Shown here one piece after another: positions 1,404-32,361 of a DNA stretch of 38,464 bases. The notes beneath the pieces are model-generated. The model had not been told where the DNA came from, ran no database searches, and saw only the letters and a list, made by a program, of their open reading frames with translations. Source of the DNA: a virus (lineage: Duplodnaviria; Caudoviricetes); IMG/VR virus record IMGVR_UViG_3300033416_000019, positions 1 to 38,464 of that record; one strand, 5' to 3'. Made by a program: the position numbers and the translations under genes. Each line of letters opens with the position of its first letter. Position 1 is the stretch's first letter.

Positions 1404-1417
1404 AAGGAGATGATGAA

Positions 1418-1663: not shown

Positions 1664-1698
1664 GATACCCGGAATTCGACACGAAGGCAGGGTGATCA

Positions 1699-3001: not shown

Positions 3002-3003
3002 CG

Positions 3004-3348
3004 ATGTACGAACTCGAAAAGAGCCTATACGTGAGGTTGGGTAAGCAGTTGGCAGACATGCTTTGTGAGAAGCGTGACGCGTATGGAGACAACCTAAAGA
3101 GTACAGGGGAGTTTCTGAGGATCCTTTATCCCGAAGGTATCCCGCCGTCTGCGTATGATGAGCTGGCTACAGTCATCAGGGTGATGGACAAGTTATTCCG
3201 CATCGCCAATAAGCAGGCCCACGACACCGTTGGGGATGCCTGGAAGGATAAGGAGTCTCCGCGGTGGGATGTCGCTGGCTATGGCTTGGCTATGGTCGTG
3301 GACAGGACGGTGCAGTTGAAGCCAGGTGTGGAGGTTGACAAATCATGA
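3004..3348 (+). CDS. All-alpha nucleotide-modification-associated protein (DUF1599-like)
   Basis: K..AYG...R..DKL.R...D.AGY motif series. Confidence 0.65.
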   Translation: MYELEKSLYVRLGKQLADMLCEKRDAYGDNLKSTGEFLRILYPEGIPPSAYDELATVIRVMDKLFRIANKQAHDTVGDAWKDKESPRWDVAGYGLAMVVDRTVQLKPGVEVDKS

Positions 3349-4217: not shown

Positions 4218-4953
4218 TGTGGTTATGTCGGTGAAGAATAGAGCGCAGCTGTTCAGGAATAGTGTCGTGCTGTACCGGAAGCAGACAGTGCCGTTTGAGT
4301 TGGTGGTGGTGGATGATGGGAGTACCGATAACCTGAAGGGTGTGATCGATGAGAATGGTGATATGAATATCAAGTACATCCGCCTTGAGCATAGCGGGCT
4401 GCGGTCACCCAACATCGGCCTGCTCACCGGGATGGAACAGTGCTCCGGCGATGTCATCATCCTGACCTGCGGCGCTGAGGTGCTGGTGCCAGATGATGCA
4501 GTGGAGACGGTGATTGAAGGTGCGTATGAGATGAAGCGGCGTGTAGGCATCTCCTGCTTCTGTCTGTCCCAGGCGATGCAGGAAGCGCTGGGTACAGTGA
4601 ACTGGAAAGAGGACGTCCATGAGATACAGAAGATCCCCGGCTTCTGGACTGAGGCGACGCCGTGGGGTAGCGTGAACACTTCCTACCAGATGAACGGCGC
4701 GATGACGCTATCCTTCAGCGGGGCGACTAGAGAGCACTGGGACTGGATCGGCAGGATACGGCGGACAGAGAGCATTGGGATGAATGACAGAGACCTGCTG
4801 GACAGAGAGCGGTTCTTAGGTATAGCTGGTAAGACGATCCTTGGCGCTCATGTGTACCATCAGTATCACAAGAGGTCGGGGAAAGAGTGGTCTGAGCTAT
4901 CGACAAAGGCGATTACATACACATCTGAAGAACAGGCGAGGCTACGATGCTAA
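4204..4953 (+). CDS. GT2 glycosyltransferase
   Basis: ASVVMSVKNR, ELVVVDDGSTD, degenerate acidic motif (CGAEV), C-terminal YHQYH. Confidence 0.85.
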   Translation: MPLASVVMSVKNRAQLFRNSVVLYRKQTVPFELVVVDDGSTDNLKGVIDENGDMNIKYIRLEHSGLRSPNIGLLTGMEQCSGDVIILTCGAEVLVPDDAVETVIEGAYEMKRRVGISCFCLSQAMQEALGTVNWKEDVHEIQKIPGFWTEATPWGSVNTSYQMNGAMTLSFSGATREHWDWIGRIRRTESIGMNDRDLLDRERFLGIAGKTILGAHVYHQYHKRSGKEWSELSTKAITYTSEEQARLRC

Positions 4954-5684
4954 TCAGTGTTGGTGCGCGATGTCTGAATGAGGAAGAACTGCTGCCGATA
5001 TTTCTGAAGAATCATCAGTTCGCTGATGAGATAGTGGTGTGCGATGGCGGGAGCACAGACAGGTCTAAGGAGATTGCTTTGTCCGACCCGAAAGTGGTAT
5101 GGGTGGACTTTCCTTATCGTGTCCCGTCGATGGGTGGCCACCCCGAAATCACCATGAACCCGGAAGGGAAGCATGTCAATGCAGTGATAGACGCCTGCCG
5201 TGGTGAGTGGTTGTACATAACAGAGGTGGACGTCGTGCCCGACCTAGCCATGCAGGATGCCATAAGGGATGTTATTCGTTTGGCTAAGTCGCCAGCTATC
5301 GGCTCGTATCTATACTATGTTGCCCCGATGAAGTCTCCTGGGAGTCCGTATGAATACTACCCCGCGTTGATACAGGGGTGGGGGCTGACGTGTTGGCATA
5401 AGGACATTGGTCTTAAGGTGCCCACTGAGGTGTGCGAGAATCTATCAGACCCATGCGCGTGGCCGCTGAAATCCAAGACCTGGGAGAACAACCAGAACAA
5501 CAAGAACGTGATCATCATGGATCGCCCCAGTGGTCGTGTCCATCTCACGTGGTGCACCAGAGAGCGAGTGCAGAACTGCATCAAGAAGTACGCCCTACGG
5601 GATAATCGGAATATCCCTGATCCTGACACCTACCTGACCAGGGCACTACTCCCCGACTGGATCGTATGGAACGGGATGTACTAA
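4947..5684 (+). CDS. GT2 glycosyltransferase
   Basis: LNEEELL, ADEIVVCDGGSTDRS.EIA, GEWLYITEVD. Confidence 0.88.
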   Translation: MLISVGARCLNEEELLPIFLKNHQFADEIVVCDGGSTDRSKEIALSDPKVVWVDFPYRVPSMGGHPEITMNPEGKHVNAVIDACRGEWLYITEVDVVPDLAMQDAIRDVIRLAKSPAIGSYLYYVAPMKSPGSPYEYYPALIQGWGLTCWHKDIGLKVPTEVCENLSDPCAWPLKSKTWENNQNNKNVIIMDRPSGRVHLTWCTRERVQNCIKKYALRDNRNIPDPDTYLTRALLPDWIVWNGMY

Positions 5685-5685
5685 G

Positions 5686-5892
5686 ATGGCTAAGAGCGTA
5701 ACCGTAGTTGACAACAGCAAGACTACCCGCATGACTGAAAAGCGGCGTCGGCAACTGAAGTCCAGCATCCATGCGTTGCTAGCGAAGGGGCTGTCATACG
5801 GAGAGGTTGCTAGAGAGCTGGATATCAGTAAGAGTGAAGTCCATGTTCTAGCTCATGAGAAGGATGAAAAGGAAGCACCACATGAAGATTGA
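5686..5892 (+). CDS. Small helix-turn-helix protein
   Basis: LLAKGLSYGEVARELDISKSEVH is a canonical HTH. Confidence 0.8.
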   Translation: MAKSVTVVDNSKTTRMTEKRRRQLKSSIHALLAKGLSYGEVARELDISKSEVHVLAHEKDEKEAPHED

Positions 5893-6982
5893 TTTCTACT
5901 GCCACCCAGGTAGCAACAGCTTCGTCTTCACGCCGCCGGATGTATGGGGCAGGGGAGTCGGCGGTGCGGAGCTATCCTTAATCTCCCTTGCTGAGACGTT
6001 CGCCAAAGACGGGCATAGGGTGCGGGTGTATAATGAGCCGTACAACAACCGCATGGAGGACTGCAGTGGTAGGTATAACGGCGTGTATTATCTCAACTCC
6101 ACCCTGTTCAATCTGTCAAAGGATCGGGATGTCTTCATCCTCTTCCGTAACCCATACCCCTACTTGCAGGGAGTAAACGCTAGGGTGAAGCTCTTTTGGT
6201 CGTGCGACCAAGTGACCACTGGCAACTACGCCACTGACATCTACCCATTCGTAGACAAAGGGGTGTGCATCAGCCTCTTCCACCAGGAAGACCACATAGA
6301 AAGGTATGGCGTGAGTAATGATAAGATCACGTGGATCGACCTGGGTGTGCGGCTGGAGGATTACGTTGATCCCTTGCCGAAGGTCAAGGGCAGGCTGATC
6401 TTCTGCTCCGTGCCGCACCGTGGGCTGCAGTGGCTCCTACCAATCTACCAAACATTGAAGGTGCTCCACCGCGACATCACCCTGCACATCACGTCCGACT
6501 ACACACTATGGGGCAGGGGGATTGGCCCGAATGATACAGACATGCGGACGATGTGGCGCGATGTATCAGGCGTAGACTACTTAGGCAACATCCCGCGCCG
6601 CAGCTTTATCGAGCAGCAGAAGCGCGCCGAACTCCTCATCTACCCGCACTACCCTGTTAGCGGGTACCCTGAACTGTTCGGTATCTCGGTGGCTGAATGC
6701 ATGGCCGCTGGTACGGTGCCGATCATCAGCACGCAGGGTGGGCTGAACATGACGGCGACAGGGGCTATCGTGATCAATGGTGATCCACGTGACCCTGATA
6801 TCCAGTTCAGGTACATCGAAGCTGCCTCCTTCTATCTACGGTACCCGAACAGGATGGATGAGGCAGCGAAGTATTGCCAGTCCATGGCGAATCGCAGGTT
6901 CGATTGGACAACCATAGCTAAGCAGTGGTATAATCTATTTGAGGAGATATTGAATGGGCGAAACCAAAAGCAACCCGTATAG
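5882..6982 (+). CDS. GT-B/GT4 glycosyltransferase
   Basis: GVGGAE, GHRV.V, S.P.RGL..L, and the EX7E motif ELFGISVAECMAAG. Confidence 0.9.
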   Translation: MKIDFYCHPGSNSFVFTPPDVWGRGVGGAELSLISLAETFAKDGHRVRVYNEPYNNRMEDCSGRYNGVYYLNSTLFNLSKDRDVFILFRNPYPYLQGVNARVKLFWSCDQVTTGNYATDIYPFVDKGVCISLFHQEDHIERYGVSNDKITWIDLGVRLEDYVDPLPKVKGRLIFCSVPHRGLQWLLPIYQTLKVLHRDITLHITSDYTLWGRGIGPNDTDMRTMWRDVSGVDYLGNIPRRSFIEQQKRAELLIYPHYPVSGYPELFGISVAECMAAGTVPIISTQGGLNMTATGAIVINGDPRDPDIQFRYIEAASFYLRYPNRMDEAAKYCQSMANRRFDWTTIAKQWYNLFEEILNGRNQKQPV

Positions 6983-7526
6983 CCTAAAGGCTAGGCTAAG
7001 GGGTATACAGAAGAAGTACGGAGATATAGTGTGCCTGGACTTGGGGTGTGGCAAGGACGAAAGCCCTATCAGCCACGCGGTGCTGGAGATCCCCTGGCGC
7101 GTCCTTGTCTCTGTGGACGCCTGGGAGCATAATATCAGCGCCCTCCAGGACAAGAGGAAGGCAGGTGGTATCGCTGCTGTCCACTGGACGTACTACATTG
7201 AGCCGATAGAGAAGATCGTCCCACGCTTGCCGGACAAGAAGTACGATGTCACCCTGTTCATCGACTCCCTAGAACACCTGCCAAAGCCTGTTGCTCTTTC
7301 TATGCTGGCGGAGGCTGAGCGCCTTACCACTACCCGCATCATTATCTTCCTGCCTATCGGCCCTTGCCCGCAGGGGCCACTGAACGGCAACCCGTTTGAA
7401 GTCCATCAATCTACGTGGACGGTGGATGAACTAGAAAGCCTGGGCTATGACGTCCAGCTCTTCCCGCAACTCCACCGTCACATCAATCCTTGGGTGGATG
7501 CTGCCTGGGCTGTCAAGAAAGTGTGA
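6954..7526 (+). CDS. Class I SAM-dependent methyltransferase
   Basis: LDLGCG motif I, YDV.LFIDSLEHL, H.STW. Confidence 0.87.
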   Translation: MGETKSNPYSLKARLRGIQKKYGDIVCLDLGCGKDESPISHAVLEIPWRVLVSVDAWEHNISALQDKRKAGGIAAVHWTYYIEPIEKIVPRLPDKKYDVTLFIDSLEHLPKPVALSMLAEAERLTTTRIIIFLPIGPCPQGPLNGNPFEVHQSTWTVDELESLGYDVQLFPQLHRHINPWVDAAWAVKKV

Positions 7527-7591: not shown

Positions 7592-8320
7592 ATGATCAAT
7601 ACTATCGGTGGGGTGGACATAACCAATGTCGTTCGGTTGAGGATTGACGACGAAGACTCAAGCGACTATGAATTCAGCGACACCAAATTCAATGAGTGGT
7701 TAGCCCACGCCGTCAGAGCTTACAGCAAGGAACGCCCATACGTCCTGGAGACGACGATAAGCCACGTCGAAGACCAGGATATCTACGCGCTGCCATCCGG
7801 ATTGGAGAGGGTCATAGAGTGCCAGTATCGGCTGTCCTTTGACACTAACGTCTATGAGCCGCTGGAAGATACCACGCTGGCTGGGTTTTCTACATACGAC
7901 TGGCCAGCATTAGACCTGATCCGCCGGATGCTGCGTGTGAAGTATGATGAAGTGGCCGTCGGCCACTGGGAAGTCATTACTAATCGCACCTCCTACGCTG
8001 CTGGTAAGTACCTTGTAATCTATCCTGCCCCTGACAGTTCCACTGGCGACTTCACTGTCCGCTACTCCGCAACACACCCGCTATCAGGCTCGGACTACTT
8101 TACTATTCCAGCAGAGCACGCCTACCTACTGGCCGATCTCCTGGTATCCTATGCCCTGAAGCGCCGCGCCATGAAGTTCTTCAAGAACCCAATGGACTAT
8201 GATGCTGGGCAGACGCGTATCCGTCGTGGGGCGACGATAGACCATCTGAACAGAGAAGCTGATATACTGGAGCAGAAGGTATGGAATGCGCTGCGGGGAA
8301 CGGTGATCGCGATAGGGTAG
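7592..8320 (+). CDS. Putative head-tail adaptor (neck) protein
   Basis: VRLRI.D.....FSD....WL..A N-terminus, Y.LP, L.IYPAP and a helical C-terminus. First gene of the structural operon. Confidence 0.6.
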   Translation: MINTIGGVDITNVVRLRIDDEDSSDYEFSDTKFNEWLAHAVRAYSKERPYVLETTISHVEDQDIYALPSGLERVIECQYRLSFDTNVYEPLEDTTLAGFSTYDWPALDLIRRMLRVKYDEVAVGHWEVITNRTSYAAGKYLVIYPAPDSSTGDFTVRYSATHPLSGSDYFTIPAEHAYLLADLLVSYALKRRAMKFFKNPMDYDAGQTRIRRGATIDHLNREADILEQKVWNALRGTVIAIG

Positions 8321-9480: not shown

Positions 9481-12400
9481 ATGGCTCTATCAGCAAAGTG
9501 CGGCAGTTTCAATGCCGATACAGCAAAGACCGCCGGACAGACGCAGGCTATCACTGGGCTTGGGTTCACACCCAAGCTTGTTTTGTTCTGGTGGAGCGGC
9601 TCAACGCGCACAAGCGACGGCGTTGCTGGTGGCGATGTCAGCATGGGCTTCGGTGCGGCAAGTTCTGCATCAAGCCGTAGTTGTGTTGCTACGTTCAGCC
9701 TGGACGCCGGGGCCAAGGCTTACTCTGACCACCTAGACTCCCTTACCTGTTGTATCTACGTCTACTCCGCTGCTGCCACGTGCGGCGGTAGCTTCGACCT
9801 GACTTCACTGGACTCCGGTGGCTTCACCCTTGACGTAATCACGCAGTTCGCTGCTGCCACACGCATCTCCTACCTAGCGCTTGGTGGTACGGATATCTCC
9901 AACGTCTACATCGGGTCGCGGTTGATGGCAACCGCCACCGGGAACTATGACACGACTGACGTTGGGTTCCAGCCGGACGCTGCGTTGTTCTTCAGCGCAG
10001 TCACAGCGGCGCATGATACAGACTACGTTACTCAATACATTTCACTCGGTTGGGCTACAGCGTCGGATAAGCAGGGTGTTATCTCAGGCTCTGCAGCCAA
10101 CAACGTCGCCACGTCCAACACGACTGGCTACGGGTACAACGGGGAAGTAATAGCCATAGCCACCCCTGCGCTGGGGTGTATGTACCGCCACTCCTTCACC
10201 TCATTCCTGTCCAACGGCTTCCGCCTCAACCGTCTGGAAGGGACGGTCGCCTATTACTTCACCTACGTCTGTATCAAGGGCGGGAGCTTCGCTGCTGGTG
10301 ACTTAACCACGCGTACCGACGGGAATGATATCGCTGAAGTTGTCGGCTTCCAGCCAACAGCGATCCTGTTCGGCAGCGCTAACCGTGCTCTCAGTACCCA
10401 GGACACACTCACCGATCATTCTTCCCTAAGCATCGGTGCGGCCACTGCCACTGACAACCGCACCTGCCAAGCGGAGTGGGATGAGGATGCTCTTGCTGAT
10501 TCGGAAACCGCTACCGCGTATTATGACGCTGCCTGCTACGCCAACATCGCTCACGATGCTATTGTAGCCCTGATGGATCTGAAGTCCATCGACAGCAGTG
10601 GCTTCACCTGCGTCATGGATGATACAGAGGCGTCGGCGTCCTGGGTGACGTACCTAGCCTTCGGTAATCAGATCCCAGTGGAGAGCGAGTCCGAATCGGC
10701 AAGCCCATCCACCAGCGCTAGTACAAGCGCAAGTACGTCGGCTAGCACCAGCGCAAGTACGTCGGCTAGTGCATCGGCTAGTAAGTCGGCTAGCGCGTCA
10801 GAGAGCGCAAGTGAGAGCGCAAGCGAGAGCGTATCTCCTAGCGCCTCTGAGAGCGCGTCGATATCGCCGTCGGAGTCGGAGAGCGCCAGTCCATCCCTAT
10901 CAGAGAGTGCCAGTGAGAGCGTGTCTCCTAGCACTTCGGAGAGCGCTAGCCCTAGCGTTAGCCCAAGCTTGTCTGAAAGCGCTAGTGAGAGTGTCAGTCC
11001 TAGCCTCTCTGAAAGTGCTAGTGAGAGTGTCAGCCCAAGTGTCTCTGAGAGCGCTAGCGAGTCAGTATCGCCGTCACTGAGCGAGTCGGCTTCTGAGAGC
11101 GTTTCGCCAAGCGTTAGTGAGAGCGCGTCGGAGAGCGTCAGCCCATCGGTATCCGAGAGTGTGTCTCCATCGGTTAGCGAATCAGCTAGCCCGTCTTTAT
11201 CAGAGAGCGCCAGCCCAAGTATATCTGAATCCGTCTCACCTAGCGCCAGTGAGAGCGTGTCTCCTAGCGTGTCTGAAAGCGCTAGTGAGAGTGTCAGCCC
11301 GTCGGTATCTGAGAGCGTCAGCGAGAGCGTCAGCCCTAGCCTCAGTGAGAGCGCTAGCCCGTCGGTATCAGAGAGTGTCAGCCCAAGCCTGTCTGAGAGC
11401 GTCAGCCCATCGCTGTCTGAAAGCGTGTCTCCGTCAGAATCCGAGAGCGTTAGCCCGTCGGTATCGGAGAGCGCCAGCGAGTCGGTAAGCCCTAGCGTCT
11501 CTGAAAGCGCATCCGAGAGTGCTAGCCCAAGTCTGTCTGAGAGCGCTAGCCCGTCCGCTAGCGAGAGCGTATCACCGTCGGTTAGTGAAAGCGTATCACC
11601 TAGCCTATCGGAGAGTGTTAGTCCATCTCTATCAGAGAGCGTTAGTCCATCTCTATCTGAAAGCGTCAGCCCTAGCCTGTCTGAGAGCGTCAGTGAAAGC
11701 GCTAGCCCAAGTGGTGGTGAGAGTGCCAGCGAGTCAGCGTCGCCATCGCTTTCTGAAAGCGCTAGCCCATCTCTATCAGAGAGTGCGTCGCCGTCGGTGT
11801 CTGCATCGGTGTCTGCATCGGTTAGCGCATCGGCATCAGAGTCGGTTAGTCCGTCGGAGTCGGAGAGTGTATCACCCTCTGGGTCAGAAAGCGTGTCTCC
11901 GTCAGAATCCGAGAGCGTCTCACCATCGGTATCTGAGAGTGTGTCTCCGTCGGAGTCGGAGAGCGTCTCCCCTTCAGAATCAGAGAGTGTATCACCTTCA
12001 GAATCCGAGAGCGTCTCTCCGTCTATCAGTGAGAGCGTCAGCCCATCCGCCTCAGAGTCAGTCAGCCCCTCCGTCTCTGAGAGCGCTTCTGAGAGCGCGT
12101 CGGCGTCCGCTGGCAGTGCATCGGAGTCCGCTTCCCCTAGTCTCAGTGAGTCCGTCAGCCCTAGCGTCAGCGCCTCAGCTTCCGAGAGTGCGTCGCCGTC
12201 GGTATCAGAGTCGGCCAGCGAGAGCGTGTCCCCGTCTGTCTCTGAGAGCGCTTCGCCGTCAGCGTCTGCAAGTGTTAGCCCTTCTGCATCAGAGAGCGTA
12301 AGTGAAAGCGCTTCGCCGTCTGTCAGCGCAAGCGCTAGCCCATCGGTCTCCGCAAGCGCTTCAGAGAGCGTCAGCCCATCTGTCTCTGAGAGCGCTTCTG

Positions 12401-12546
12401 AGAGCGCGTCGGTCAGCCCGTCGGTATCTGAGAGCGTCAGCGAGAGCGCGTCGCCCAGTCCCGCTGGCGCAGGTCTAGTCGCTCCGATCATCAGCTCTAT
12501 GGGCATTTTCAGTGTGATAATGGGTGGGGGTATCATCAGTGGATAG
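9481..12546 (+). CDS. Serine-rich repeat (mucin-like) putative virion protein, 1021 aa
   Basis: About 400-aa beta-rich N-domain with three GF[TQ]P repeats, then about 590 aa of (S-X)n and a short hydrophobic C-terminus. No signal peptide or LPXTG. Confidence 0.88.
10684..12459 (+). repeat. (Ser-X)n coding repeat, units such as [12 protein letters not shown]
   Basis: Ser at almost every second codon with X = E, A, P, V, L or T. TCN and AGY codons are mixed. Confidence 0.97.
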
Positions 12547-13147
12547 CATAAGGATGTTCAATAAGATCAGGAAGACGTACAACCCTGGGCTGGATAAGGT
12601 GCCGCCTATCAGGTTGGCTAAGTGGCGAAGGGATGTGCTTATCGCGAACCTGGGGGCGTGTGGGTTTACGCGCGGTGCGGAGCTTGGGGTGCGCGAGGGG
12701 TTAGGCGCACTGAAGATGTGCCAAATGATGCCGGGGCTACATCTAATCCTGGTGGATCCGTGGGACGTATGGCCTGGACATAAGGACATGGATGGCCATG
12801 CTGACGACCCGTTGCTGTTCTTGGAAGAGGCGCAGGAGCGACTGAGAGGGTATGACTGCGAGTTCATACGGGCCAAGAGTGCGGACTACGCCAGCAATGT
12901 GCCGGACGCTTCGCTGGACTTTGTGTACATCGATGGCGATCATAGCTTCGACGGCACTATGCTAGACCTGATCCTTTGGGCACCGAAGGTCAGGGTAGGC
13001 GGCGTGATATCTGGCGATGGGTACAAGCACTATAGATACACCGGGGTGATCCCAGCTGTAGATACCTACACACGGCAGCACTTGGTTCATGAGTGGTACA
13101 TCACTGGTGAGATGGACTCAACCTACTTCTGGAGGAAGAATGGTTAA
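12524..13147 (+). CDS. Class I SAM methyltransferase (Methyltransf_24-like)
   Basis: [31 protein letters not shown]. The real start may be 12539 or 12554. Confidence 0.9.
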
Positions 13148-15212
13148 GGATCGCGTTTCAGTTATCATACCGGGTCGGTGTGAGCCATACTTCCAGCAGA
13201 CCATAGACTCTGTGTTGGATAGGGCCACCGGGGACATAGAAGTAATCGCTATTGTAGATGGCCCAGGGCAGGAGCCGCCACTGCACAGTGATGACCCAAG
13301 GGTGAAGATCATCGTTCTCGATAAGAGTATCGGCCAGCGGGCAGCGTACAACCTGGGCGTTCGCGAAAGCACTGGGCAATACATAATGAAGATCGATGCC
13401 CACGCTTTGTTCAGTGGCGGCTTTGATGATATACTGAAAGCGAACTGTCCAGAGAAGACGATAGTGCTGCCGGAGATGCGGCGGCTCAATGTGCATACAT
13501 GGCAGGATAAGTCGCGCGGCAGGACGCACTTCATGCACATCGGGCTGGACTTATACTGTCACTACTGGAGCGAATACCGTAGGAGGCCAGAGGCCAAGGT
13601 TGAGTATCCAGAGGTGATGACGGGGCAGGGGTCATGCTGGTTCACAACGCGGGAATGGAATGACTACATTGGCCTGCTGGATGAGCGTGTCGGTTCATGG
13701 GGAAATGTAGGCATTGAGGTCAGCCTACGTACATGGTTGTGCGGTGGTAGCCAGATCGTCAATAAGCACTGCTGGCAGGCTCACTGGTTCAGGAAGGATG
13801 AAGGCGGCTTCACCTACCCGATGGATGGCAGGCAGGTCGCCAAAGCGCATAAGTTCACTAGGGATAATTACTACTTCAAGGATGATGCCTTTGAGCATCA
13901 GGTTAGGCCGTTCTCTTGGATCATTGATAAGTTCGCTCCGGTGCCTGGATGGGAGGCATATTCAGTGGATCACTTTGAGACTAGCAGGGCAATCATCTAT
14001 TACACCGACCACCACATTGACGAAAGGCTAGCTGCAGCCTGCCGTAAGGTACTGGCTGAAGCTGCTGGCCCGATACCTATCATCAGTGTATCGCAGAAGC
14101 CGCTGAACTTCGGGAAGAATATCTGTGTTGGGGAGAAGCCAAGGAGTAATAGGAGTATCTATGAGCAGATACTGGCTGGGTTGGAAGCTGCGCCGGAGGG
14201 GGCGGTGATCTACCTAGCGGAGCATGATGTCGCGTATACCCCGTCGCACTTCGCCTACGTCCCGGAGGTGAAGGATAGACTAGACTACAATCAGAATAGG
14301 TATTACTGGGCACCTGGGCAGACGGAGTACCTTCCGGCACGCGGGCAGTGGCCGCTCAGCCAGCTTGTAGCCTATCGTGAGTTTCTGATCGAGAAGGTGA
14401 AGGAGTCGCTGGCTGCAGATGAGCCATCGTCGGAGATGTACCACTGCAGGACAGCGAAGTTTGAGAGTGATCGGCCCAATGTTGATATCAGGCATGGGCT
14501 GAACTTCTCAAAGGACGGCAGGTGGAAGCGGGAGTACGCCGCTGGCAGGGCGGAGTCCACTGTCGGCAACATCGGCCACTGGGGATCGCCGCGTTGGTTC
14601 CAGAAGAAACTTGGGTGGACGCCGACTCCCGAAGAGGTCGGGCTGTCCCCTTTAGCGCGATACCTGCGTAGGGACTATGGGCTAGATCGCTTTCGCCCTG
14701 GCCCGATACGGGTGAAGGATATGCACCGTGGCGATGTGTCCAGGTTGATTGGGCTGATGGGGTTGACTAAAGGCGCGGAGATTGGGGTAGCTGGCGGTGA
14801 GCACTCAGAGATCATCCTGAAGAATATCGAAGGGTGTGAGTTGTTATGTATAGATACCTGGGGGACGTCGTGGTCGAAGAAGCTGTACGAGCCAGCGGTG
14901 AAACGGTTGGCTCCGTACAACGCTAAGATCATACGGGCGTCGTCTATGGAGGCGGCCCGCGATGTGCCGGATGGGTCGCTTGACTTTGTATACATCGACG
15001 CCAGCCATGAGTTCGACAACGTGATGGAAGACCTGATCACTTGGTCACGTAAGGTGAAGAAGGGCGGTATCGTCAGCGGTCACGATTATGACAAGCCACA
15101 TCGGAAGGGCGTAGTCCCCGCGGTGGACTTGTACACCAAGATGCATGGCATACAAGAATGGTTTCTCACCGATCAGGTACGCGAAGCGTCGTACATGTGG
15201 GTGAAGCCATAG
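13140..15212 (+). CDS. Three-domain enzyme: ppGalNAc-T-like GT-A + second GT-A-like domain + SAM methyltransferase
   Basis: Domain 1: SVIIP, KIDAH, WG...E.SLRTWLCGG, HWFRK. Domain 2: IIYYTD...YLAEHDV.Y. Domain 3: GAEIGV, LDFVYIDASH, GG..SGHDY. GGAGGA precedes ATG 13140. Confidence 0.88.
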   Translation: MVKDRVSVIIPGRCEPYFQQTIDSVLDRATGDIEVIAIVDGPGQEPPLHSDDPRVKIIVLDKSIGQRAAYNLGVRESTGQYIMKIDAHALFSGGFDDILKANCPEKTIVLPEMRRLNVHTWQDKSRGRTHFMHIGLDLYCHYWSEYRRRPEAKVEYPEVMTGQGSCWFTTREWNDYIGLLDERVGSWGNVGIEVSLRTWLCGGSQIVNKHCWQAHWFRKDEGGFTYPMDGRQVAKAHKFTRDNYYFKDDAFEHQVRPFSWIIDKFAPVPGWEAYSVDHFETSRAIIYYTDHHIDERLAAACRKVLAEAAGPIPIISVSQKPLNFGKNICVGEKPRSNRSIYEQILAGLEAAPEGAVIYLAEHDVAYTPSHFAYVPEVKDRLDYNQNRYYWAPGQTEYLPARGQWPLSQLVAYREFLIEKVKESLAADEPSSEMYHCRTAKFESDRPNVDIRHGLNFSKDGRWKREYAAGRAESTVGNIGHWGSPRWFQKKLGWTPTPEEVGLSPLARYLRRDYGLDRFRPGPIRVKDMHRGDVSRLIGLMGLTKGAEIGVAGGEHSEIILKNIEGCELLCIDTWGTSWSKKLYEPAVKRLAPYNAKIIRASSMEAARDVPDGSLDFVYIDASHEFDNVMEDLITWSRKVKKGGIVSGHDYDKPHRKGVVPAVDLYTKMHGIQEWFLTDQVREASYMWVKP

Positions 15213-15223
15213 GAGAGTAGGCA

Positions 15224-16576
15224 ATGGGTTGTCCAAGTGAAGTTTACATAGGCGATAACTTGGTATTCTCGATAACAACGCACCATCCAGATACGCTGGA
15301 GGCATCGGACGCCGACGAAAATCCCATATACCGCGTGTATGAGGAAGAGACAGGGACTCCTATCCTTACTGGCGAGATGACCAAGCTGGATGATGCCAAC
15401 ACTGTCGGCTTCTATACAGAACTCATTGCCTGCACAGCAGCTAATGGCTTTGAGCACAAAAAGACGTACAACATTTATATCAGGGCGATAGTCAATCTGG
15501 CTCCTGGCACTATCTCGTTTGCGTTCAGGGCACTGGATGGGGCGGTGCTATACGCTACACAGGGTGCTATCACCTGGGGCCAGCAGAAGATCGCGGCAAA
15601 CGTGGCTAGCCAGGGGGCGCTTGATATTCGCAACTCCCACGCCTCTGGTTATGGCATGTATAACAATGGGGCCACCGGACAGCTAAACTTCGGTACTGCC
15701 ATTGGCCAGCTAAATAGTGGCGCATCACAGGGGCAGAAGAACTACTCATCGGGCGGCGACGGGATGTTATGCCAGGGGGCAGGTATGAATAGCCGTGGCA
15801 TATGCGGTACTGGCGTGAAATACGGGTTGGAGTTCTTAGGAGCCACAGCAGCTGTCGAACCCATGTGGGCGCTTGAAGCCACGTTGACCAAGATCAAGAA
15901 GTGGCTGCAACTTCTGTTCCGCAAGGATGCAGCCATCAAGACGGACAACGCTACGGAGCTTGGTGAGATCAATGCTAGCGGCGGAAGCGGGGCTGGTGCA
16001 TTCGATAACGTCGCGGATAGTGTTGAGGCCATTCGTGACCGCGGCGATGCGGCATGGGCAACAGCGGCAGGGTTTGCCGTTCCGGGTGATGAGATGGATC
16101 TAGTGGATGACGCCATCACCGATATTTGGGGTCACTCATCGCGTACTCTTACCCAGTCCGCTGCCGACGTTACTGCGGCCCTGACTGGTAGCGCGCTCAG
16201 CATCAAGCGTGGCGACACGTACACCAAGACTCTCACTGGCCTGGGCAACCTGTCAGACAGGACAAAGCTCTGGCTTACCGTCAAGAAGTCGAAAGCCTCC
16301 CTGGACAGCGCAGCTACCCTGCAGCTTGTTGAAAGCACCGGCCTCACTAAACTAAACAGTGCTAACACTACAGCGGCTTGGGGTAGTCTGGTGGTGGATG
16401 ATGAGGTGGCTGGTGACGTGACTATCACCTTCGAAGCCGATGCCACGAAGGATCTTACCCCTACCAATGAAGCGGTGATGTACTATGACATCCAGAAGAA
16501 GACGGCCACTGGCATCACCACGGTCACCGAAGAGGAAGTCGAAGTCACTGACGATGTTACGAGGGCGATTGCATAA
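15224..16576 (+). CDS. Putative virion fibre/neck appendage protein with C-terminal BppU-like domain
   Basis: Gly/Asn-rich central repeats (GQLN.G). C-terminal LSIKRGDT...LTVK...G.VTIT....T..L...YYDIQ pattern. Confidence 0.55.
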   Translation: MGCPSEVYIGDNLVFSITTHHPDTLEASDADENPIYRVYEEETGTPILTGEMTKLDDANTVGFYTELIACTAANGFEHKKTYNIYIRAIVNLAPGTISFAFRALDGAVLYATQGAITWGQQKIAANVASQGALDIRNSHASGYGMYNNGATGQLNFGTAIGQLNSGASQGQKNYSSGGDGMLCQGAGMNSRGICGTGVKYGLEFLGATAAVEPMWALEATLTKIKKWLQLLFRKDAAIKTDNATELGEINASGGSGAGAFDNVADSVEAIRDRGDAAWATAAGFAVPGDEMDLVDDAITDIWGHSSRTLTQSAADVTAALTGSALSIKRGDTYTKTLTGLGNLSDRTKLWLTVKKSKASLDSAATLQLVESTGLTKLNSANTTAAWGSLVVDDEVAGDVTITFEADATKDLTPTNEAVMYYDIQKKTATGITTVTEEEVEVTDDVTRAIA

Positions 16577-16983: not shown

Positions 16984-17427
16984 ATGGCAACAACCCTGCG
17001 TCAAGCAGCTTATGCCAAGCTTAAAGATAGTAGCATTACAAGCTTGCTCAGTGGTGGGTCAAGCGGCGTCCTCCTTTCAGGGAGGGTGCAAGTGGACAGC
17101 CCATCCCCATGCATCGCTTTGGAGATGGGGCCAGAATCAGGCCGCGTCGGTGACCTGCCCTTCACCGCGCAGACCTTCAACGTATATTGCTATGCCAGGA
17201 CACCAGCGGCATCGATGTCCGACTTCACTGTCATAGACAAGATACTTAAGGCTGTGCGGGATGTCCTACATGGTGCTTCCCTCACCTTGGATGGACAAGG
17301 GAAGGTGGCGTTTGATTGCGCTTGGGATAACTATAGTAGTGGGGATAACTATGACGAGCGTAGGAGAGCGTTCTACCGATATGAGCGGTATCGTGTGTGG
17401 ATGGTATTAACCACCCACTATCATTAG
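16984..17427 (+). CDS. Putative tail terminator (completion) protein
   Basis: LRQA.Y.KL....T.LL...P.I...F.VYCY...I..AV..VL pattern, directly before the tail tube gene. Confidence 0.7.
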   Translation: MATTLRQAAYAKLKDSSITSLLSGGSSGVLLSGRVQVDSPSPCIALEMGPESGRVGDLPFTAQTFNVYCYARTPAASMSDFTVIDKILKAVRDVLHGASLTLDGQGKVAFDCAWDNYSSGDNYDERRRAFYRYERYRVWMVLTTHYH

Positions 17428-17438
17428 GAGGTTAGGGA

Positions 17439-17990
17439 ATGACCGCAACGAAGCAGTTCAAGTCCTTTGCTGTCAAGAAGGCGTATGTGGCACCGTATGC
17501 AGCTGGAGCGGCAGTTTGGGTGGAGTTCCCCCTTGTCGCTGACGGCACGCTGACCGCTACGATCCAAGAAGCAGAGGTGAGAGACGGGGAGGGGAACCTG
17601 AACCATACATGGTTCCACACTCCCGACGGCACAGTGACGTTGCGTGGTAAGCAGACTGCACTTCGCATCCTTGAGCTTGTCACCGGGAATGGTGTGTCTA
17701 GCATTTCCGGAGCGGAGAGGATGTACTTCGGTACAGATGAGGAACTCACGCCGCCTCTGGTGCGGCTGAAAATGGTGGCTACGGCCATCGACGGTAGCGA
17801 TACTGAGGGCTACATAATCGTGATCGCGTACAAGGCGCGGGGCCGCTTCCCATCCATCGGGATGGCGGAGACCACGCCCGGTGAGATCTCGATTGAGTTC
17901 CGTCTTCAGAAGTCAACCCTTGATGACCAAGGCAACACCATCCTGTCTGCGATGGGGCATCTGGACGCAGTACCAGCATCGTATGTGTAA
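17439..17990 (+). CDS. Major tail tube protein
   Basis: 183-aa beta-rich protein with the strongest RBS in the window (AGGAGGT), followed by a hairpin and the chaperone genes. Confidence 0.75.
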   Translation: MTATKQFKSFAVKKAYVAPYAAGAAVWVEFPLVADGTLTATIQEAEVRDGEGNLNHTWFHTPDGTVTLRGKQTALRILELVTGNGVSSISGAERMYFGTDEELTPPLVRLKMVATAIDGSDTEGYIIVIAYKARGRFPSIGMAETTPGEISIEFRLQKSTLDDQGNTILSAMGHLDAVPASYV

Positions 17991-18007
17991 GTAGTAAACT
18001 GATGGGC

Positions 18008-18033
18008 GGGGGTGGGGAGTGATCCTCACCCCC
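18008..18033 (+). terminator. GC-rich hairpin after the tail tube gene
   Basis: GGGGGTGGGGA-GTGA-TCCTCACCCCC, an 11-bp stem with a GNRA loop. No U-tract, so it may be an attenuator or mRNA stabiliser. Confidence 0.55.
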
Positions 18034-18062
18034 ACCCGACAATGAAGAAAAGGAGATAGAAG

Positions 18063-18596
18063 ATGACAGAGGAGTTCCTTAACGACGAACAGACGGCCTT
18101 GGGGTCAGCTGAGCTAGTTATCGGTGACCGCACCATCCCCATTGAGGAAGCCTGCACCTATAAGACCGTTGAGACTTCCAAGATGGTGATGAGGCTATTG
18201 GGGCTGATCGACATGGATGAGATCTTCCCTAAAATAGTCCTGGCGCAACAGTCTGGTGGCCAGACAGCAGTCATGGTTATGCTTGTACAGAAGCTGCTGC
18301 CGATGCTTGCCAACGACATGCCGGATACATTACTTGATCTAGCGGCGCTGGTGATGACACCGAACAGTGAGATGATGAAGTTGTACAGGAAGCCAAATGG
18401 CATCTCCTCTCTTATCAAAGATAATAAGGAGTGGTTGCTGTTCAGCGCCCCGCCAGAGGCCAGCATCCAGATCATCACTGAATTCTTCCCACACCTTGGG
18501 CTGAAGAGACTAAAAAACGTGTGGAACCCGCTCATTGCGACGATGAGCGGGGTACTGGGGATAACGAAGACGGTGGAGGACTCGTCAGCCTCTTAG
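18063..18596 (+). CDS. Tail assembly chaperone (gpG-like)
   Basis: Position after the tail tube, AAGGAG RBS, and a slippery site near the 3' end. Confidence 0.75.
   Translation: MTEEFLNDEQTALGSAELVIGDRTIPIEEACTYKTVETSKMVMRLLGLIDMDEIFPKIVLAQQSGGQTAVMVMLVQKLLPMLANDMPDTLLDLAALVMTPNSEMMKLYRKPNGISSLIKDNKEWLLFSAPPEASIQIITEFFPHLGLKRLKNVWNPLIATMSGVLGITKTVEDSSAS
18512..18518 (+). other. -1 programmed frameshift heptamer A_AAA_AAC
   Basis: X_XXY_YYZ in frame with 18063 (CTA AAA AAC). The -1 frame is open to TAG at 18814. Confidence 0.8.
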
Positions 18597-18814
18597 AAGT
18601 AATGCTCAGTGAGTTCGGGCTGAAGTTTGAGGAGGTACTGTTTGACTTCACAATAGCACAACTGGATAGCCTTGTTCTGGCAAGGATAAAAAGGAACGAG
18701 GCGATGGAGAAGGAGGGCAAGAAGGCGGCACAACGACGACAAGCCAAGACTGAGCCGGAAGCTACTCCTGGTACGATGGCGGATCTCAAGAAGATATTTG
18801 GGAATCCAAGGTAG
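18518..18814 (+). CDS. Tail assembly chaperone frameshift extension (gpT-like)
   Basis: -1 frame ORF (L.EFG...EEV..DFTIAQL...DLKKIFG) with no clear RBS of its own. Confidence 0.7.
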   Translation, partial: RVEPAHCDDERGTGDNEDGGGLVSLLEVMLSEFGLKFEEVLFDFTIAQLDSLVLARIKRNEAMEKEGKKAAQRRQAKTEPEATPGTMADLKKIFGNPR

Positions 18815-18820
18815 GGTAAA

Positions 18821-19285
18821 GTGCCTAGCCCAACTGCTGCCGGGAAACTAGCCAACTTTGAGAATGAGCTTGAAACGGAGTTGCTGGCCTTTGCCCAGGA
18901 AGTGGAAAACTGGACGCGCGGTCAGCGTGACTTGTATTGGGATAATGATACAGGTTCTGCCGACGCGTCTATCACCGGGTTTGTAGTGGATGTGGAAGAC
19001 CCGATGAAGAACGTGAACAGGTCGCCATGGCCAGAGGCTAGATCTGGCATAGTGAGGTCGCGCCACCGCAACCCCCCGGCGCACTATACCCCAACCCAAC
19101 CAGACCTTGATCCGCCGCCACCCGACACGATTATGGAAGTCGGGCTATCAGTGAACACTGAGTACGCTGAGTTCATCGGTGCAGAAAGGGGATCCGATTC
19201 AGTCGTCGATCTCCTTGAAGAAGCCCTGGCCTTCAATACGCGAGCGCTGGTTGACCACGTACTGAACGCTTGGAGGAATGCCTAA
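18821..19285 (+). CDS. HK97 gp10-like neck/tail-completion protein
   Basis: W.N.TG.A..SI and V..NTEYA.F motifs. Confidence 0.55.
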   Translation: MPSPTAAGKLANFENELETELLAFAQEVENWTRGQRDLYWDNDTGSADASITGFVVDVEDPMKNVNRSPWPEARSGIVRSRHRNPPAHYTPTQPDLDPPPPDTIMEVGLSVNTEYAEFIGAERGSDSVVDLLEEALAFNTRALVDHVLNAWRNA

Positions 19286-22200
19286 TGCCAGCTGTCGATT
19301 CAGTACATGTCATTTTCAGGGTAATAGGGCTAAACAACCTTCAGCAAGCGCAGACCCTGCTGGCTCAGATCGCCGCGTACAATAATAGGTCGATCAACAT
19401 CAGGGTTGGGTCATCGCAGCAACTGTCTCAGATTAGTTCGATGAACAGCGGTGTGATGAAGCTGGTTAGCAGCATCGCTGGTGCCCCCGCGCGCCTAGCC
19501 AGCTTCGCTGATGGATTTGTCCACCTTGGGCAAGTGATGTCTACGTTTGCCTACCGCATGACGCTGGTCACTGCGCCTATTACGGCGTTCGTGGTTACGG
19601 TTGGCAAGTCAGCTATTGAGCTAGAGAAGTCTACGTTGAAGGTGGCAACACAGATTGAGGGGACTAAGGAAGAGGCGGTAGCCTTCGCGCGCGAAGTGGA
19701 AGATGCGATGACCGACTTGGCTATCAAGACTTCCAAGTCTGCCACCGAGCTATCCAACGCGCTATACTTAGTCCTCTCATCGATGACCGTGGCAAGGCAA
19801 GACGCCATAGCCATGATGGAACCGATTGCTAAGGCTGCTGTTGCTGGTGTATCGGATATGGAGAGCGTGGTCAAAGCCGTGACCACGGCGTTCAACGTCT
19901 ACGGCGACGAATTGGCCAAGTATGGCGACATGCAGTCACAGGCTACGCACATAGTAGACGTATTCTTTGAGGCAGTGCGTAAAGGTAGGGCGGAGCTGAC
20001 GGATATCGCCAACGGCTTCGGTCGGGTCGCTGAGATGGGCAAGCTGGCTGGCAGCAGCTTCGAAGAAGTGACGGCCATGATCGCTGCACTGTCCCGCGTG
20101 TTCACCGCTGGTCAGGCCACCACCTCAGCTGAGAACTTCTACAAGACACTGGTCGATCCCACCAAGCAGGCAAGGGATGCCTGGGAGGAGTTGGGGATAT
20201 CCATGTACGAGACGGTGGATGGGATTACCCAGCGCCGTCCGGCTATGGAAGTCTTCGTAGAACTGATAGAGAAGCTGAAAGCTGGTGATATTAAGGAAGC
20301 TGATGAGGCGCTGACTACACTGTTCGGCACCATCCGCGGCCTGCGTGCGGCCTTAGTCCTCACGGATACCACGGCGCTCAAGGAGATGCTTGGCTGGTCT
20401 AAGCAATGGGCTAAGCAAGCACCCGACCTGGAAAGCATGATACAGGGCATAGGCAAATACTTCTCCATCACAGCGGAGGGAGTGTTGTTCTTGTTAGACG
20501 TCCTGAAGCGGCTTGGTGAGGCGCTTGGCAAGGATATGTTGGGTGCGTTCCGCGGGGATATCGCTGGCGCGGTGAAGGGATTCAACGAGATATTGAAGCT
20601 GATTAGAGAGATGGATCCCGCGATGCAAAAGACCGTATGGCAGTGGGCGCTGTTCGCTATTGCCCTTGGCCCTCTTACCCTGTTGCTTGGTACGCTGACG
20701 ATGGGCATTGGCGGACTGCTTACTACTATCGGGCAGCTGCTCACGCCGATGGGACTGGCTGGGTTGACAGTGCTTTGGGGGACGTTTGGCGACACGATTA
20801 AGAAGGCGTGGGAAACGATAAAGAGCTATACTGGAGAGTTGGGTTTCAAGGGGCTGATCAAGCTGGTGGCCGACCTTGCTGTTGAATTTGGTGTGCTGAA
20901 GCAGGAACAAGCCGATAAGGTATTGGAAGGGATCGGGATAGCGGCTGGGGACGTCAATTCTGCTGGCGTAGAAAAGCTCAAGGACAAGCTTGGTGAACTG
21001 GGGATAGCGATAAAGGGCCAGGACACCGTGCTTGGCAAGTTCAAAGCAGTGCTTAGCGGCACCGGGATAATCGATGAGCAGGGCGCTAAGAACTTCGACG
21101 CGTTTGTGGAAAGTATAAATAAGCTAGGGGAGAAGGCGGCTGGGCTATGGGATAAGATCAAGAACTTCTTCTTGGGGGTGGCGCAGTTCATCGATGAGAC
21201 GTCCAAGGGGGAGAATAAGACCGGGAAGACGCTGCAGTTCCTTGGTGAGCTGATATCTACGCTGCTGAGGCTAGAAGAGCTTGACTTCAGCTCGGTTGAT
21301 GGTATCGCCAAGGCGATTGACAGTATCGCCAGCGCTCTGTTGGCTGTAGCGGCTGCGTCTATGGGCGTGACCGTGCTGTCTGGTCTTGTTAAGGTGCTCA
21401 TGCCGCTTCTTGGATTGTCAGCTCCATTGTCCTTGCTTGCCGCCGTGCTGGGCGCAGGGATCGGGGTGGGCCTTGGAGAACTCAGCCAGTATAAAGGGGA
21501 AAGGAAGAAGGGCATCCAGAACTATATGGATGCCTACGGGCTGACGTATGAAGAGGCTTACAATGAGTTCATGCTTGAGACACTCAAGCTCCCGCACAAG
21601 TGGCCAAATGTCGGTGCTAGCGACAAAACCTTCGGTGGCCCACCGAAGCCTACGTGGTTGGATAAAGTGTATGGCCCGATGAACTGGCCAAGGGAGGATT
21701 TCTACCAACTCCAGCAGGCAGCGATATCGCGTGATAAGAGAGAGCAAGACGCCCTATCGCAGACGTATGGGATACCAGGAATGAAGCTCACGGTGCCGGG
21801 GACAGGGTTCATGATCCCTGGCTTGGCCCGCGTGCTATCATTTTTCAAGTCGGCTGGTGGGGTAGGTGAGAAGCTGGCTGGCGCTGGTGGCGGCGCGCTC
21901 AGCGGCATCCAGAACCTCTTCGGCACTGGCGCTAAGGGGATCGTTGACGCTGCTCAGATATGGTGGAGTGAGCTGATGGGCAACGCCGATGTCCCCATGG
22001 ACATGAGAAATGAGATCATATCGACGCTGGCTGGGATTGTGGTCAAGATTGAAGACGCGATGGTGAACGACCCCAACTCCGTCGCCGGGTTGATGGCTGA
22101 GCTAAGCCTGTCATTGCAAGAAAGCGTGCAGGCGGTAGACGCTTACACCAATGCTGAAAAGAATGCTAAGAAGGCTGTAGAGAATGCTGAAGATGCGCTG

Positions 22201-32359: not shown

Positions 32360-32361
32360 TA

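What the first reader, a model, noticed from the sequence alone, without database searches (positions are those of the whole stretch)
13140..13960. Glycosyltransferase domain resembling eukaryotic mucin-initiating polypeptide GalNAc-transferases (GT27)
Seen: KIDAH (DAH at 13395-13403) and MTGQGSCWFTTREWNDYIGLLDERVGSWGNVGIEVSLRTWLCGG...AHWFRK...FTYP. Established (from recall): ppGalNAc-Ts have a DxH metal motif (FLDAH) and the Gal/GalNAc-T motif GGLF...IG.YD....WGGEN.E.SFR.WQCGG...GH.FRK..PY.FP, and act on Ser/Thr/Pro-rich peptides. Motif order and spacing match well, although WGGE is WGNV here and there is no ricin lectin domain. It lies two genes after the Ser/Pro-rich protein, making it the best candidate for the initiating enzyme.
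Basis: partly seen in the sequence, partly recalled or inferred. Interest (0 to 1): 0.85.

Follow-up and report, generated by a model that had tools for sequence, protein, structure and literature searches.

The report
Phage mucin-type enzyme for serine stalks
An uncultured tailed phage encodes an enzyme whose predicted fold most closely matches the animal enzymes that start mucin sugar chains, two genes from a protein with a 594-residue stretch that has serine at every second position, so the phage likely sugar-coats fibres on its own particle, though no sugar transfer has been measured and the sugar is probably not the animal one.

Summary
Observation confirmed. The domain (13140-13958) is the first of three (GT27-like, second GT-A, methyltransferase) in a gene of a tailed-phage head-tail region. 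Its model (pLDDT 94.9) matches polypeptide GalNAc-transferases far better than any GT2 (Z 27.3 vs 19.2). Metal triad, Trp/Arg/Tyr donor-loop residues and the peptide-pocket Phe are kept. The GalNAc-binding Glu of WGGE, the lectin domain and the membrane anchor are absent: it works like GT27 but is not a member. It belongs to a large family in uncultured phages that is tightly coupled to serine-repeat genes: 59 of 73 distinct homologues have one nearby, and 17 of 28 repeat-bearing loci have the enzyme versus 0 of 48 without. The repeats resemble streptococcal SRRP adhesin repeats, which use an unrelated enzyme. Best reading (about 0.65): it starts O-glycans on phage serine-repeat fibres, domain 2 extends, methyltransferases cap. 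Caveats: no activity data, virion location inferred, domain 2 co-occurs equally well, and one complete repeat-bearing phage lacks the family. Not found in print in my searches; this scan reported the same system before on other DNA (six notes).

The parts
13140..13958 (+). GT27-like GT-A domain (aa 1-273 of a 690-aa protein); 'G-type', WGNVG clade of a phage family; predicted peptide O-glycosyltransferase
13395..13403 (+). DxH metal motif D86-A-H88 (GalNAc-T1 D209/H211)
   Evidence: PMC4202792 passage
13698..13718 (+). WGNVGIE, in place of WGGENLE: W and last E kept, donor-binding E and N replaced by V and G
13779..13820 (+). AHWFRK...FTYP: third metal ligand H215, peptide-pocket F217, R218, loop Y226
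13980..14630 (+). Second GT-A-fold domain with invariant ExD (EHD in 14214-14228); no named family; likely elongating glycosyltransferase
14700..15212 (+). C-terminal class I methyltransferase (Methyltransf_24); likely glycan O-methyl cap
   Evidence: homologues swap it for rhamnosyl O-methyltransferase/CmcI in 11 of 60
12524..13147 (+). Stand-alone Methyltransf_24 gene, 39% identical to the fused one
9481..12546 (+). Serine-repeat protein (1021 aa): about 400-aa N-terminal domain of unnamed viral type, repeat tract, 27-aa tail; proposed acceptor
10681..12462 (+). 594-residue Ser-X tract (295 Ser, 83 Glu, 64 Ala, 64 Val, 58 Pro, 6 Thr); all six Ser codons used
12463..12543 (+). Conserved C-terminal tail (PII..G..S..GG pattern) shared by repeat proteins with unrelated N-termini; possible particle-docking peptide
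15224..16576 (+). Gene whose first 105 residues form a conserved unnamed domain found in all 15 loci that carry the tail motif; fused to an adaptor-like region in L044
28489..29386 (+). Second serine-repeat gene (DNRLRE/CBM96-like domain plus 92-residue tract), split by a frame break near 28821-28827 in this assembly
708..7526 (+). Upstream glycan cluster: three GT2, one GT4, sulfotransferase, NAD-dependent epimerase/dehydratase, methyltransferase
7592..8320 (+). SU10-type head-tail adaptor (left virion-gene flank)
16984..23487 (+). Tail completion protein to tape-measure protein (right virion-gene flank)

Best explanation
This domain is a phage-encoded relative of the mucin-starting GalNAc-transferases that likely adds the first sugar to serines of the neighbouring serine-repeat protein, which is predicted to be a fibre on the phage particle. 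Shown: fold, metal triad, peptide-pocket Phe, soluble three-domain layout, position among virion genes, conserved coupling to serine-repeat genes. Inferred: in the host cytoplasm domain 1 uses a metal ion and a nucleotide sugar (probably not UDP-GalNAc) to O-glycosylate the Ser-X tract; domain 2 and the upstream GT2/GT4 enzymes extend the glycan; the two methyltransferases and perhaps the sulfotransferase cap it. The dense glycan would stiffen the tract into an extended stalk that carries the N-terminal domain away from the particle and shields the particle; the short C-terminal tail would dock it, possibly through the 15224 domain.
For: Fold: VIA Z 27.3, 267 of 270 residues, 2.5 A to mouse GalNAc-T1 and 26.1 to Toxoplasma T3, next best 19.2 (GT2), among 48,161 chains; all 29 Foldseek rows shown are GalNAc-Ts. 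Internal control: domain 2 of the same protein gives only non-specific GT-A hits, E about 1e-5, TM about 0.5. Residues: D86/H88/H215 in 123 of 123 G-type members, W187 116, F217 113, R218 120, Y226 104, E193 123; F217 aligns with the conserved Phe of the eukaryotic HVFR motif (Phe in 22 of 25), i.e. GalNAc-T2 Phe361, whose mutation nearly abolishes activity on peptides (PMC4432651 passage). Coupling: 13 of 13 closest relatives have the repeat gene abutting the GT gene within 14 nt, 11 upstream and 2 downstream; 59 of 73 distinct homologues have a tract within 6-10 kb, and 4 of the other 14 elsewhere on the record, including 2 of 2 near-complete ones. Reverse: 17 of 28 long-tract loci carry the family versus 0 of 48 loci without a long tract. 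The enzyme clade tracks repeat make-up: WGNVG clade tracts have median 0.055 Pro and 0.35 Glu at the X position (n=14) against 0.355 and 0.005 (n=80) in other G-type loci. The tract uses all six Ser codons, so it is kept at protein level. No signal or membrane segment in the enzyme (max hydropathy 1.2) or in the first 60 residues of the acceptor (0.84). Virion link: genes lie between adaptor and tail genes; 3 of 20 tract-bearing proteins of other phages hit PHROG virion/tail families; LamG domains head 5 of 15 N-termini scanned. Precedent: mycobacteriophages glycosylate their virions with own GTs (secondary passages); chlorovirus A064R is GT-GT-methyltransferase with a second methyltransferase A061L (PMC9614988 passages).
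Against: No activity, glycan or virion proteomics; no isolated phage has the family (0 of 50,697 records over 80% of the query). The donor-binding Glu is lost. The second GT-A family co-occurs with tracts equally well (17 of 28 versus 0 of 48), so co-occurrence does not say which domain initiates; many loci also carry an E-type paralogue that keeps the Glu (49 of 158 loci have E and G). One complete repeat-bearing phage (G009) has no family member and other GT-like genes; G007 has only divergent DxH enzymes whose best PDB hit is a GT2 mannosyltransferase. The mapping of the other two pocket residues (T2 Phe280/Trp282 to C140/Y142) holds in HMMER alignments but not in MAFFT. Loci are related by descent, so the Fisher p (6e-10) and the composition contrast (one clade) overstate independence. 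17 of 20 tract proteins had no named virion PHROG hit, and the window's own acceptor has none (Pfam; NCBIfam, 20). The acceptor's tail is hydrophobic enough (1.85) to be a membrane anchor.
Confidence: 0.65

Rival explanations
1. Same cassette and same substrate, but domain 1 is an elongating (sugar-acceptor) enzyme; the first linkage is made by domain 2, an E-type paralogue elsewhere in the genome, the GT4 at 5855-6982, or a host enzyme.
For: Domain 2 family is as tightly coupled to tracts; WGGE Glu lost; Pfam files domain 1 as GT2 in 60 of 60 members; bacterial SRRPs are primed by GtfA/B (PMC6973325 passages); the genome is only 56% complete.
Against: Domain 1 has the GT27 fold and Phe361 equivalent while domain 2 resembles no peptide GT specifically; the E-type has His at that position in 56 of 69; domain 2 is fused behind G-type (60 of 122) and never behind E-type (0 of 69), which fits an order of action; the closest relatives showed a single family member in the flanks fetched.
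Confidence: 0.2
2. The enzyme starts O-glycans on the repeat protein, but that protein is not on the virion: it is a tail-anchored membrane or host-surface protein used in lysogeny or superinfection exclusion.
For: Hydrophobic C-terminal tail, hydropathy 1.85; no virion family hit for the window's acceptor; related contigs sit in many MAGs.
Against: No signal peptide; location inside head-tail genes; most other tract proteins end in short unrelated tails, 73 of 107 complete ones 60 residues or less; tracts occur inside minor tail and virion structural proteins.
Confidence: 0.08
3. An ordinary GT2 that modifies something else (phage DNA bases, host polysaccharide), the GT27 likeness and the neighbouring repeats being incidental.
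For: Phage GTs that modify DNA or host serotype are common (PMC12619734 passage); PF00535 hit above cut-off; the tree does not resolve a GT27-plus-phage clade (p-AU 0.48).
Against: 0 of 48 loci without long tracts carry the family; Z gap of 8 over the best GT2; abutting gene order in 13 of 13 close relatives.
Confidence: 0.05

Closest known systems
Eukaryotic polypeptide GalNAc-transferases (CAZy GT27; GalNAc-T1 8v9q/1xhb, T2, Toxoplasma T3 8uhv)
   Same: Catalytic-domain fold (Z 27.3), DxH plus distal His, W and final E of the Gal/GalNAc-T motif, HxFR and loop Tyr, proposed Ser-rich low-complexity acceptor.
   Different: WGNVG for WGGEN (donor Glu lost), no ricin lectin, no membrane anchor, cytoplasmic, fused to a second GT and a methyltransferase, about 20% identity, separate clade from eukaryotic sequences; acceptor is almost all Ser, not Thr-rich.
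Protist GT60 polypeptide GlcNAc-transferases (Dictyostelium, Trypanosoma)
   Same: Lectin-less GT27 relatives acting on peptides, some cytosolic (PMC8724618 passages); viral proteins named 'Glycosyltransferase, GlcNAc' are structural neighbours (TM 0.72).
   Different: No Pfam hit of that name in 60 members; the model is closer to GT27 structures; no GT60 structure was among the hits.
Streptococcal/lactobacillus serine-rich repeat proteins (Fap1, GspB, PsrP) and their GtfA/B pathway
   Same: Alternating-serine tract with Ala/Val/Glu/Leu spacers; cytoplasmic multi-enzyme glycosylation encoded beside the substrate (PMC6973325 passages).
   Different: No signal peptide, LPxTG anchor or SecA2/Y2 seen; the candidate priming enzyme is GT-A/GT27-like, not GtfA/B; viral, with Pro in the repeats.
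Mycobacteriophage virion glycosylation (Che8, Corndog, Myrna; Freeman 2023, seen only through citing passages)
   Same: Phage-encoded GTs glycosylate the phage's own particle.
   Different: There the glycans sit on capsid and tail-tube C-termini; this family has no full-length match in isolated phages and uses dedicated long tracts.
Chlorovirus PBCV-1 A064R plus A061L
   Same: GT-GT-methyltransferase protein with a second free methyltransferase (PMC9614988 passages).
   Different: A064R finishes an N-glycan on a sugar acceptor; no homology was tested or is claimed. This parallel also fits the elongating rival.

Membership tests
GT27 ppGalNAc-T | GT-A catalytic domain of the GalNAc-T type | tested here: met
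   Z 27.3, 267 aligned, 2.5 A; Foldseek E 1.5e-16
GT27 ppGalNAc-T | DxH plus distal His metal triad | tested here: met
   D86, H88, H215; 123 of 123 G-type and 25 of 25 eukaryotic rows
GT27 ppGalNAc-T | WGGE(N) motif with the GalNAc-binding Glu | tested here: not met
   WGNVG; E and N in 25 of 25 eukaryotic rows, V and G here (role from PMC6789641)
GT27 ppGalNAc-T | Peptide pocket: Phe361 equivalent | tested here: met
   F217; 113 of 123 G-type
GT27 ppGalNAc-T | Peptide pocket: Phe280/Trp282 equivalents | tested here: inconclusive
   C140/Y142 by HMMER, different register by MAFFT; no residue-level structural superposition was available
GT27 ppGalNAc-T | C-terminal ricin lectin domain | tested here: not met
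   Followed by a GT-A domain and a methyltransferase
GT27 ppGalNAc-T | Type II membrane anchor | tested here: not met
   Max 19-residue hydropathy 1.2
GT27 ppGalNAc-T | Nested among eukaryotic GalNAc-Ts | tested here: not met
   Phage family (43 rows, support 96) and eukaryotic rows (25, support 99) are separate; sister relation neither shown nor rejected, p-AU 0.48
GT27 ppGalNAc-T | Transfers GalNAc from UDP-GalNAc to Ser/Thr with retention | not testable with these tools
   needs assay
GT60 pp-GlcNAc-T | Sequence profile of the family | tested here: inconclusive
   No such Pfam family among hits of 60 members at E<=0.05; structural neighbours so named in BFVD
SRRP/aSec system | Alternating-serine repeats | tested here: met
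   594-residue tract, 295 Ser
SRRP/aSec system | Signal peptide and LPxTG wall anchor on the repeat protein | tested here: not met
   No hydrophobic N-terminus; C-terminus read directly
SRRP/aSec system | GtfA/B and SecA2/Y2 genes | tested here: inconclusive
   None named by Pfam/PHROGs/NCBIfam on the window ORFs scanned; a GT4 lies at 5855-6982; record 56% complete
Phage virion glycosylation (works like) | Phage-encoded GTs among virion genes | tested here: met
Phage virion glycosylation (works like) | Glycan detected on particle proteins | not testable with these tools
   no isolate

The most novel reading that the evidence does not exclude
Uncultured aquatic and sediment phages carry a self-contained mucin-like glycosylation kit: a family of soluble peptide O-glycosyltransferases that is the viral sister of eukaryotic GT27, uses a non-GalNAc donor, co-evolves its pocket with the repeat it modifies (Pro-rich versus Glu/Ala-rich), and builds methylated glycan stalks that snap onto the particle through a short tail and a dedicated docking domain. 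It would be a second, independent invention of serine-repeat glycoproteins and a living model of the ancestor of mucin initiation.
Probability: 0.3. Interest if true: 0.88.

Novelty: new variant of a known kind. Interest (0 to 1): 0.72.

Why it matters
GT27-type peptide glycosylation is described for animals and protists (PMC8724618, PMC4202792 passages), and known bacterial serine-repeat proteins are primed by an unrelated enzyme pair. A large phage family (645 confirmed stretches in the part of IMG/VR scanned; 678 clusters at E<=1e-30) that pairs the GT27 fold with serine repeats would extend virion glycosylation from a few mycobacteriophages to a broad uncultured group, bear on the origin of mucin-type initiation, and supply small, soluble, lectin-free peptide O-glycosyltransferases that can be tested directly by expression with their own neighbouring substrate.

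Tried and rejected
Isolated phages: tblastn found only six partial N-terminal GT2 matches. NCBIfam: only weak sub-cut-off GT2 hits. Domain 2: no meaningful PDB sequence hit, Pfam GT2 in 4 of 92 members only; the VIA search of its model could not be queued, so it rests on Foldseek. Methyltransferase domain: no PDB sequence hit. Acceptor N-terminus: only unnamed viral clusters in the Atlas. A complex prediction for the C-terminal tail with the 15224 domain was never run because the queue was full, so docking is a hypothesis from co-occurrence alone. Sequencing runs: no RNA holder listed. The tree with a GT2 outgroup (13 rows, 8 of them one haloarchaeal group, long branches) could not place the root. 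One search had an off-by-one numbering and was replaced. Chance DNA repeat: rejected by codon scrambling and by contigs of runs X2-X4 that match the region. Recent capture of an animal gene: rejected, since the phage sequences are not nested among eukaryotic ones. Literature: searches showed no paper describing GT27-like enzymes with serine-repeat proteins in phages (listings and abstract starts seen; one search returned none); subscription journals are mostly not held, Freeman 2023 was not held, and no supplements were read.
Full report
Context. The window is an IMG/VR virus record, 56% complete. All long ORFs run on the + strand. Pfam and PHROGs name a head-tail adaptor (7592-8320), a tail completion protein (16984-17427) and a tape-measure protein (19270-23487), and upstream a glycan cluster with three GT2, a GT4, a sulfotransferase, an epimerase/dehydratase and a methyltransferase. 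The finding lies between adaptor and tail genes, in the order: serine-repeat gene (9481-12546), methyltransferase (12524-13147), the 690-aa GT gene (13140-15212), a conserved unnamed gene (15224-16576).

Observation. All motifs quoted are present at the stated places. phmmer of the whole protein against PDB sequences returned 17 hits, the best 14 GalNAc-T-type chains. A 60-sequence profile scored GalNAc-T1 at 3e-27 across the domain and the best non-GT27 chain at 8e-13 across the first 85 positions only. The AlphaFold2 model (pLDDT 94.9) aligned to mouse GalNAc-T1 with Z 27.3 over 267 of 270 residues at 2.5 A and to Toxoplasma T3 with Z 26.1; the next fold, a GT2, scored 19.2. All 29 Foldseek rows shown were GalNAc-Ts.

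Active site. In ORF numbering D86, H88 and H215 match the GalNAc-T1 triad D209/H211/H344 (alignment; PMC4202792 passage). Among 209 distinct family domains from my loci (236 before merging at 90%), 123 are 'G-type' like this one, 69 'E-type', 17 other; G and E/D types form two deep branches. G-type keeps W187 (116 of 123), E193 (123), F217 (113), R218 (120) and Y226 (104). F217 matches the Phe of the eukaryotic HVFR motif (22 of 25 rows), GalNAc-T2 Phe361, one of two pocket residues whose mutation nearly abolishes activity (PMC4432651 passages). The other pocket residues map to C140/Y142 by HMMER but not by MAFFT, so that part is inconclusive. The Glu and Asn of WGGEN (25 of 25 eukaryotic rows) are V190 and G191. 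That Glu is described as critical and placed on the donor GalNAc (PMC6789641 passage), so the donor is likely another sugar. E-type keeps the Glu (by my definition of the type) but has His at the Phe361 position in 56 of 69.

Rest of the protein. Residues 281-497 fold confidently (pLDDT 96.3) into a GT-A domain with invariant ExD and only generic GT-A hits. The C-terminal domain and the upstream gene are Methyltransf_24 paralogues, 39% identical; in 11 of 60 homologues a rhamnosyl O-methyltransferase/CmcI domain is found. The layout parallels chlorovirus A064R plus A061L (PMC9614988 passages), an analogy only.

Acceptor. The repeat protein has a 594-residue tract with 295 Ser in alternating positions, spaced by Glu, Ala, Val, Pro, written with all six Ser codons. 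That matches the description of bacterial SRRP repeats, which are primed by GtfA/B and exported by SecA2/Y2 (PMC6973325 passages); here there is no signal peptide. A second, shorter tract gene lies at 28489-29386.

Coupling, forward. The single-protein scan gave 11 viral loci, the profile scan 645 confirmed stretches of which the best 80 were fetched. After removing the window's own locus, 88 loci fall into 73 clusters at 90% GT identity; 59 have an ORF with at least 50 residues in Ser/Thr-X runs within 6-10 kb. For the other 14 one record each was searched whole: 4 have tracts elsewhere, including both near-complete records; the 10 blanks are at most 45% complete. All 13 closest relatives (12 viral, one MAG contig) have the tract gene abutting the GT gene, although their N-terminal domains and surrounding virion modules differ. 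In MAG contigs 28 of 50 loci have a tract, many of the rest being short; these contigs are spread over CPR bacteria, Thermoplasmatales, Planctomycetota and others, and I did not check each for phage origin. The host of this phage is unknown.

Coupling, reverse. A DNA pattern for Ser-Pro-Ser-(Ala/Val) repeats matched 126 stretches in 14 of 64 parts of the collection; 80 came with flanks. I dropped 4 as duplicates of a contig or repeat (L115, L135, L141, L155). Of 76, 28 have a run of 60 residues or more: 17 carry the family within 10 kb, against 0 of 48 with chance or short matches (Fisher p 6e-10, inflated by relatedness; mean locus length 16.0 versus 13.0 kb). Whole-record search of the 11 misses found the family in 2 more; 6 are fragments of at most 33%; one is a giant-virus bin; G007 has three divergent DxH enzymes that hit GalNAc-Ts weakly and a GT2 mannosyltransferase slightly better; G009, complete, has other GT-like genes only. 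The link is strong but not obligate. The second GT-A family shows the same pattern, 17 of 28 versus 0 of 48, and is fused behind G-type (60 of 122) but never E-type (0 of 69). So coupling shows that the cassette serves the repeats; only the fold argues that domain 1 starts the chain.

Clade detail. The window's clade (WGNVG, 14 members, support 1.0) goes with Glu/Ala-rich, Pro-poor tracts and has Cys at the proposed Phe280 position in 14 of 14, while other G-type loci have Pro-rich tracts and mostly Phe (50 of 80). This is one clade, hence one event, and only suggests co-adaptation. A 24-residue C-terminal tail motif occurs in 15 loci (duplicates included), all of which also carry the 15224-type domain; 6 loci have the domain without a scored tail. 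One tail-plus-domain locus (L031) has GTs from outside the clade, and in L044 the domain is fused to an adaptor-like region (weak Pfam hit). This suggests a docking pair; it was not modelled.

Virion location is inferred from gene position, lack of export signals, LamG heads in 5 of 15 N-termini scanned and PHROG virion or tail hits in 3 of 20 tract proteins.

Phylogeny. With 25 eukaryotic GalNAc-Ts, 43 phage domains, 13 GT2, 3 G007 enzymes and one further GT27-like protein, phage and eukaryotic sets are separate clades; holding them together against GT2 is not rejected (p-AU 0.48) and not shown.

Known or new. Phage-encoded virion glycosylation is known from mycobacteriophages (citing passages in PMC12363180 and PMC12619734; the primary paper was not held). 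No isolated phage has this family, Atlas neighbours are unnamed viral GT2 clusters, and six literature searches showed no description. This scan has noted the same system on other DNA in six unchecked notes; my reading was recorded before I saw them and they are not independent evidence. What this locus adds is the WGNVG clade with Glu/Ala-rich repeats, the GT-GT-methyltransferase fusion, the two-way coupling test with its exceptions, and the tail/domain pair. CAZy family numbers for GtfA/B and GT60 Pfam identity are recalled, not from a call.

Verdict. Real feature; works like a ppGalNAc-T but fails membership (no WGGE Glu, lectin or anchor; separate clade). New variant of a known kind; best explanation 0.65; interest 0.72.

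Noticed in passing
window 28489-29386: Second serine-repeat gene is split near 28821-28827; contigs of run X2 carry 20 extra letters there, a length that would put both parts in one frame, so the break is probably an assembly or strain deletion.
   Followed up: partly
window 12463-12543 and 15224-15538: Conserved C-terminal tail of the repeat protein and an unnamed 105-aa domain co-occur in every locus with the tail; possible docking pair for attaching fibres.
   Followed up: partly
window 19270-23487: Tape-measure protein ends in a Hint (intein-like autoprocessing) domain, about aa 1167-1275.
   Followed up: no
window 32353-35835: 1160-aa protein with a hydrophobic N-terminal segment, DNRLRE and lamin-tail domains and Thr-Pro tracts; a second kind of possible O-glycosylation target, likely exported.
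   Followed up: no
window 29825-30300: N-terminus of the 844-aa ORF is a Trp/Ser/Tyr-rich repeat (WSYP-like units) with no family hit.
   Followed up: no
window 1-7526: Glycan-tailoring cluster with sulfotransferase and epimerase, suggesting sulfated or methylated glycans.
   Followed up: no
window 36312-37196: 294-aa ORF with DLH...GD...H motifs that look like a metallophosphoesterase by recall; no family hit.
   Followed up: no
L218 1486-2352, L221 1444-2571, L222 1093-2628 (G007): A repeat-bearing provirus has three divergent DxH glycosyltransferases outside this family, forming their own clade.
   Followed up: partly
L290 194-2959 (G009): A complete repeat-bearing phage has three adjacent GT-like genes of another type; candidate alternative priming system.
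   Followed up: no
L043, L047, L051, L059, L063, L064, L069, L070, L072, L076, L085: A recurring family of repeat proteins with a conserved 110-125-aa N-terminal domain and the tract running to the C-terminus, several directly upstream of an E-type enzyme.
   Followed up: no
P0069: A 286-aa lectin-less protein with a full WGGEN motif that branches next to eukaryotic GalNAc-Ts (support 87); context unknown.
   Followed up: partly
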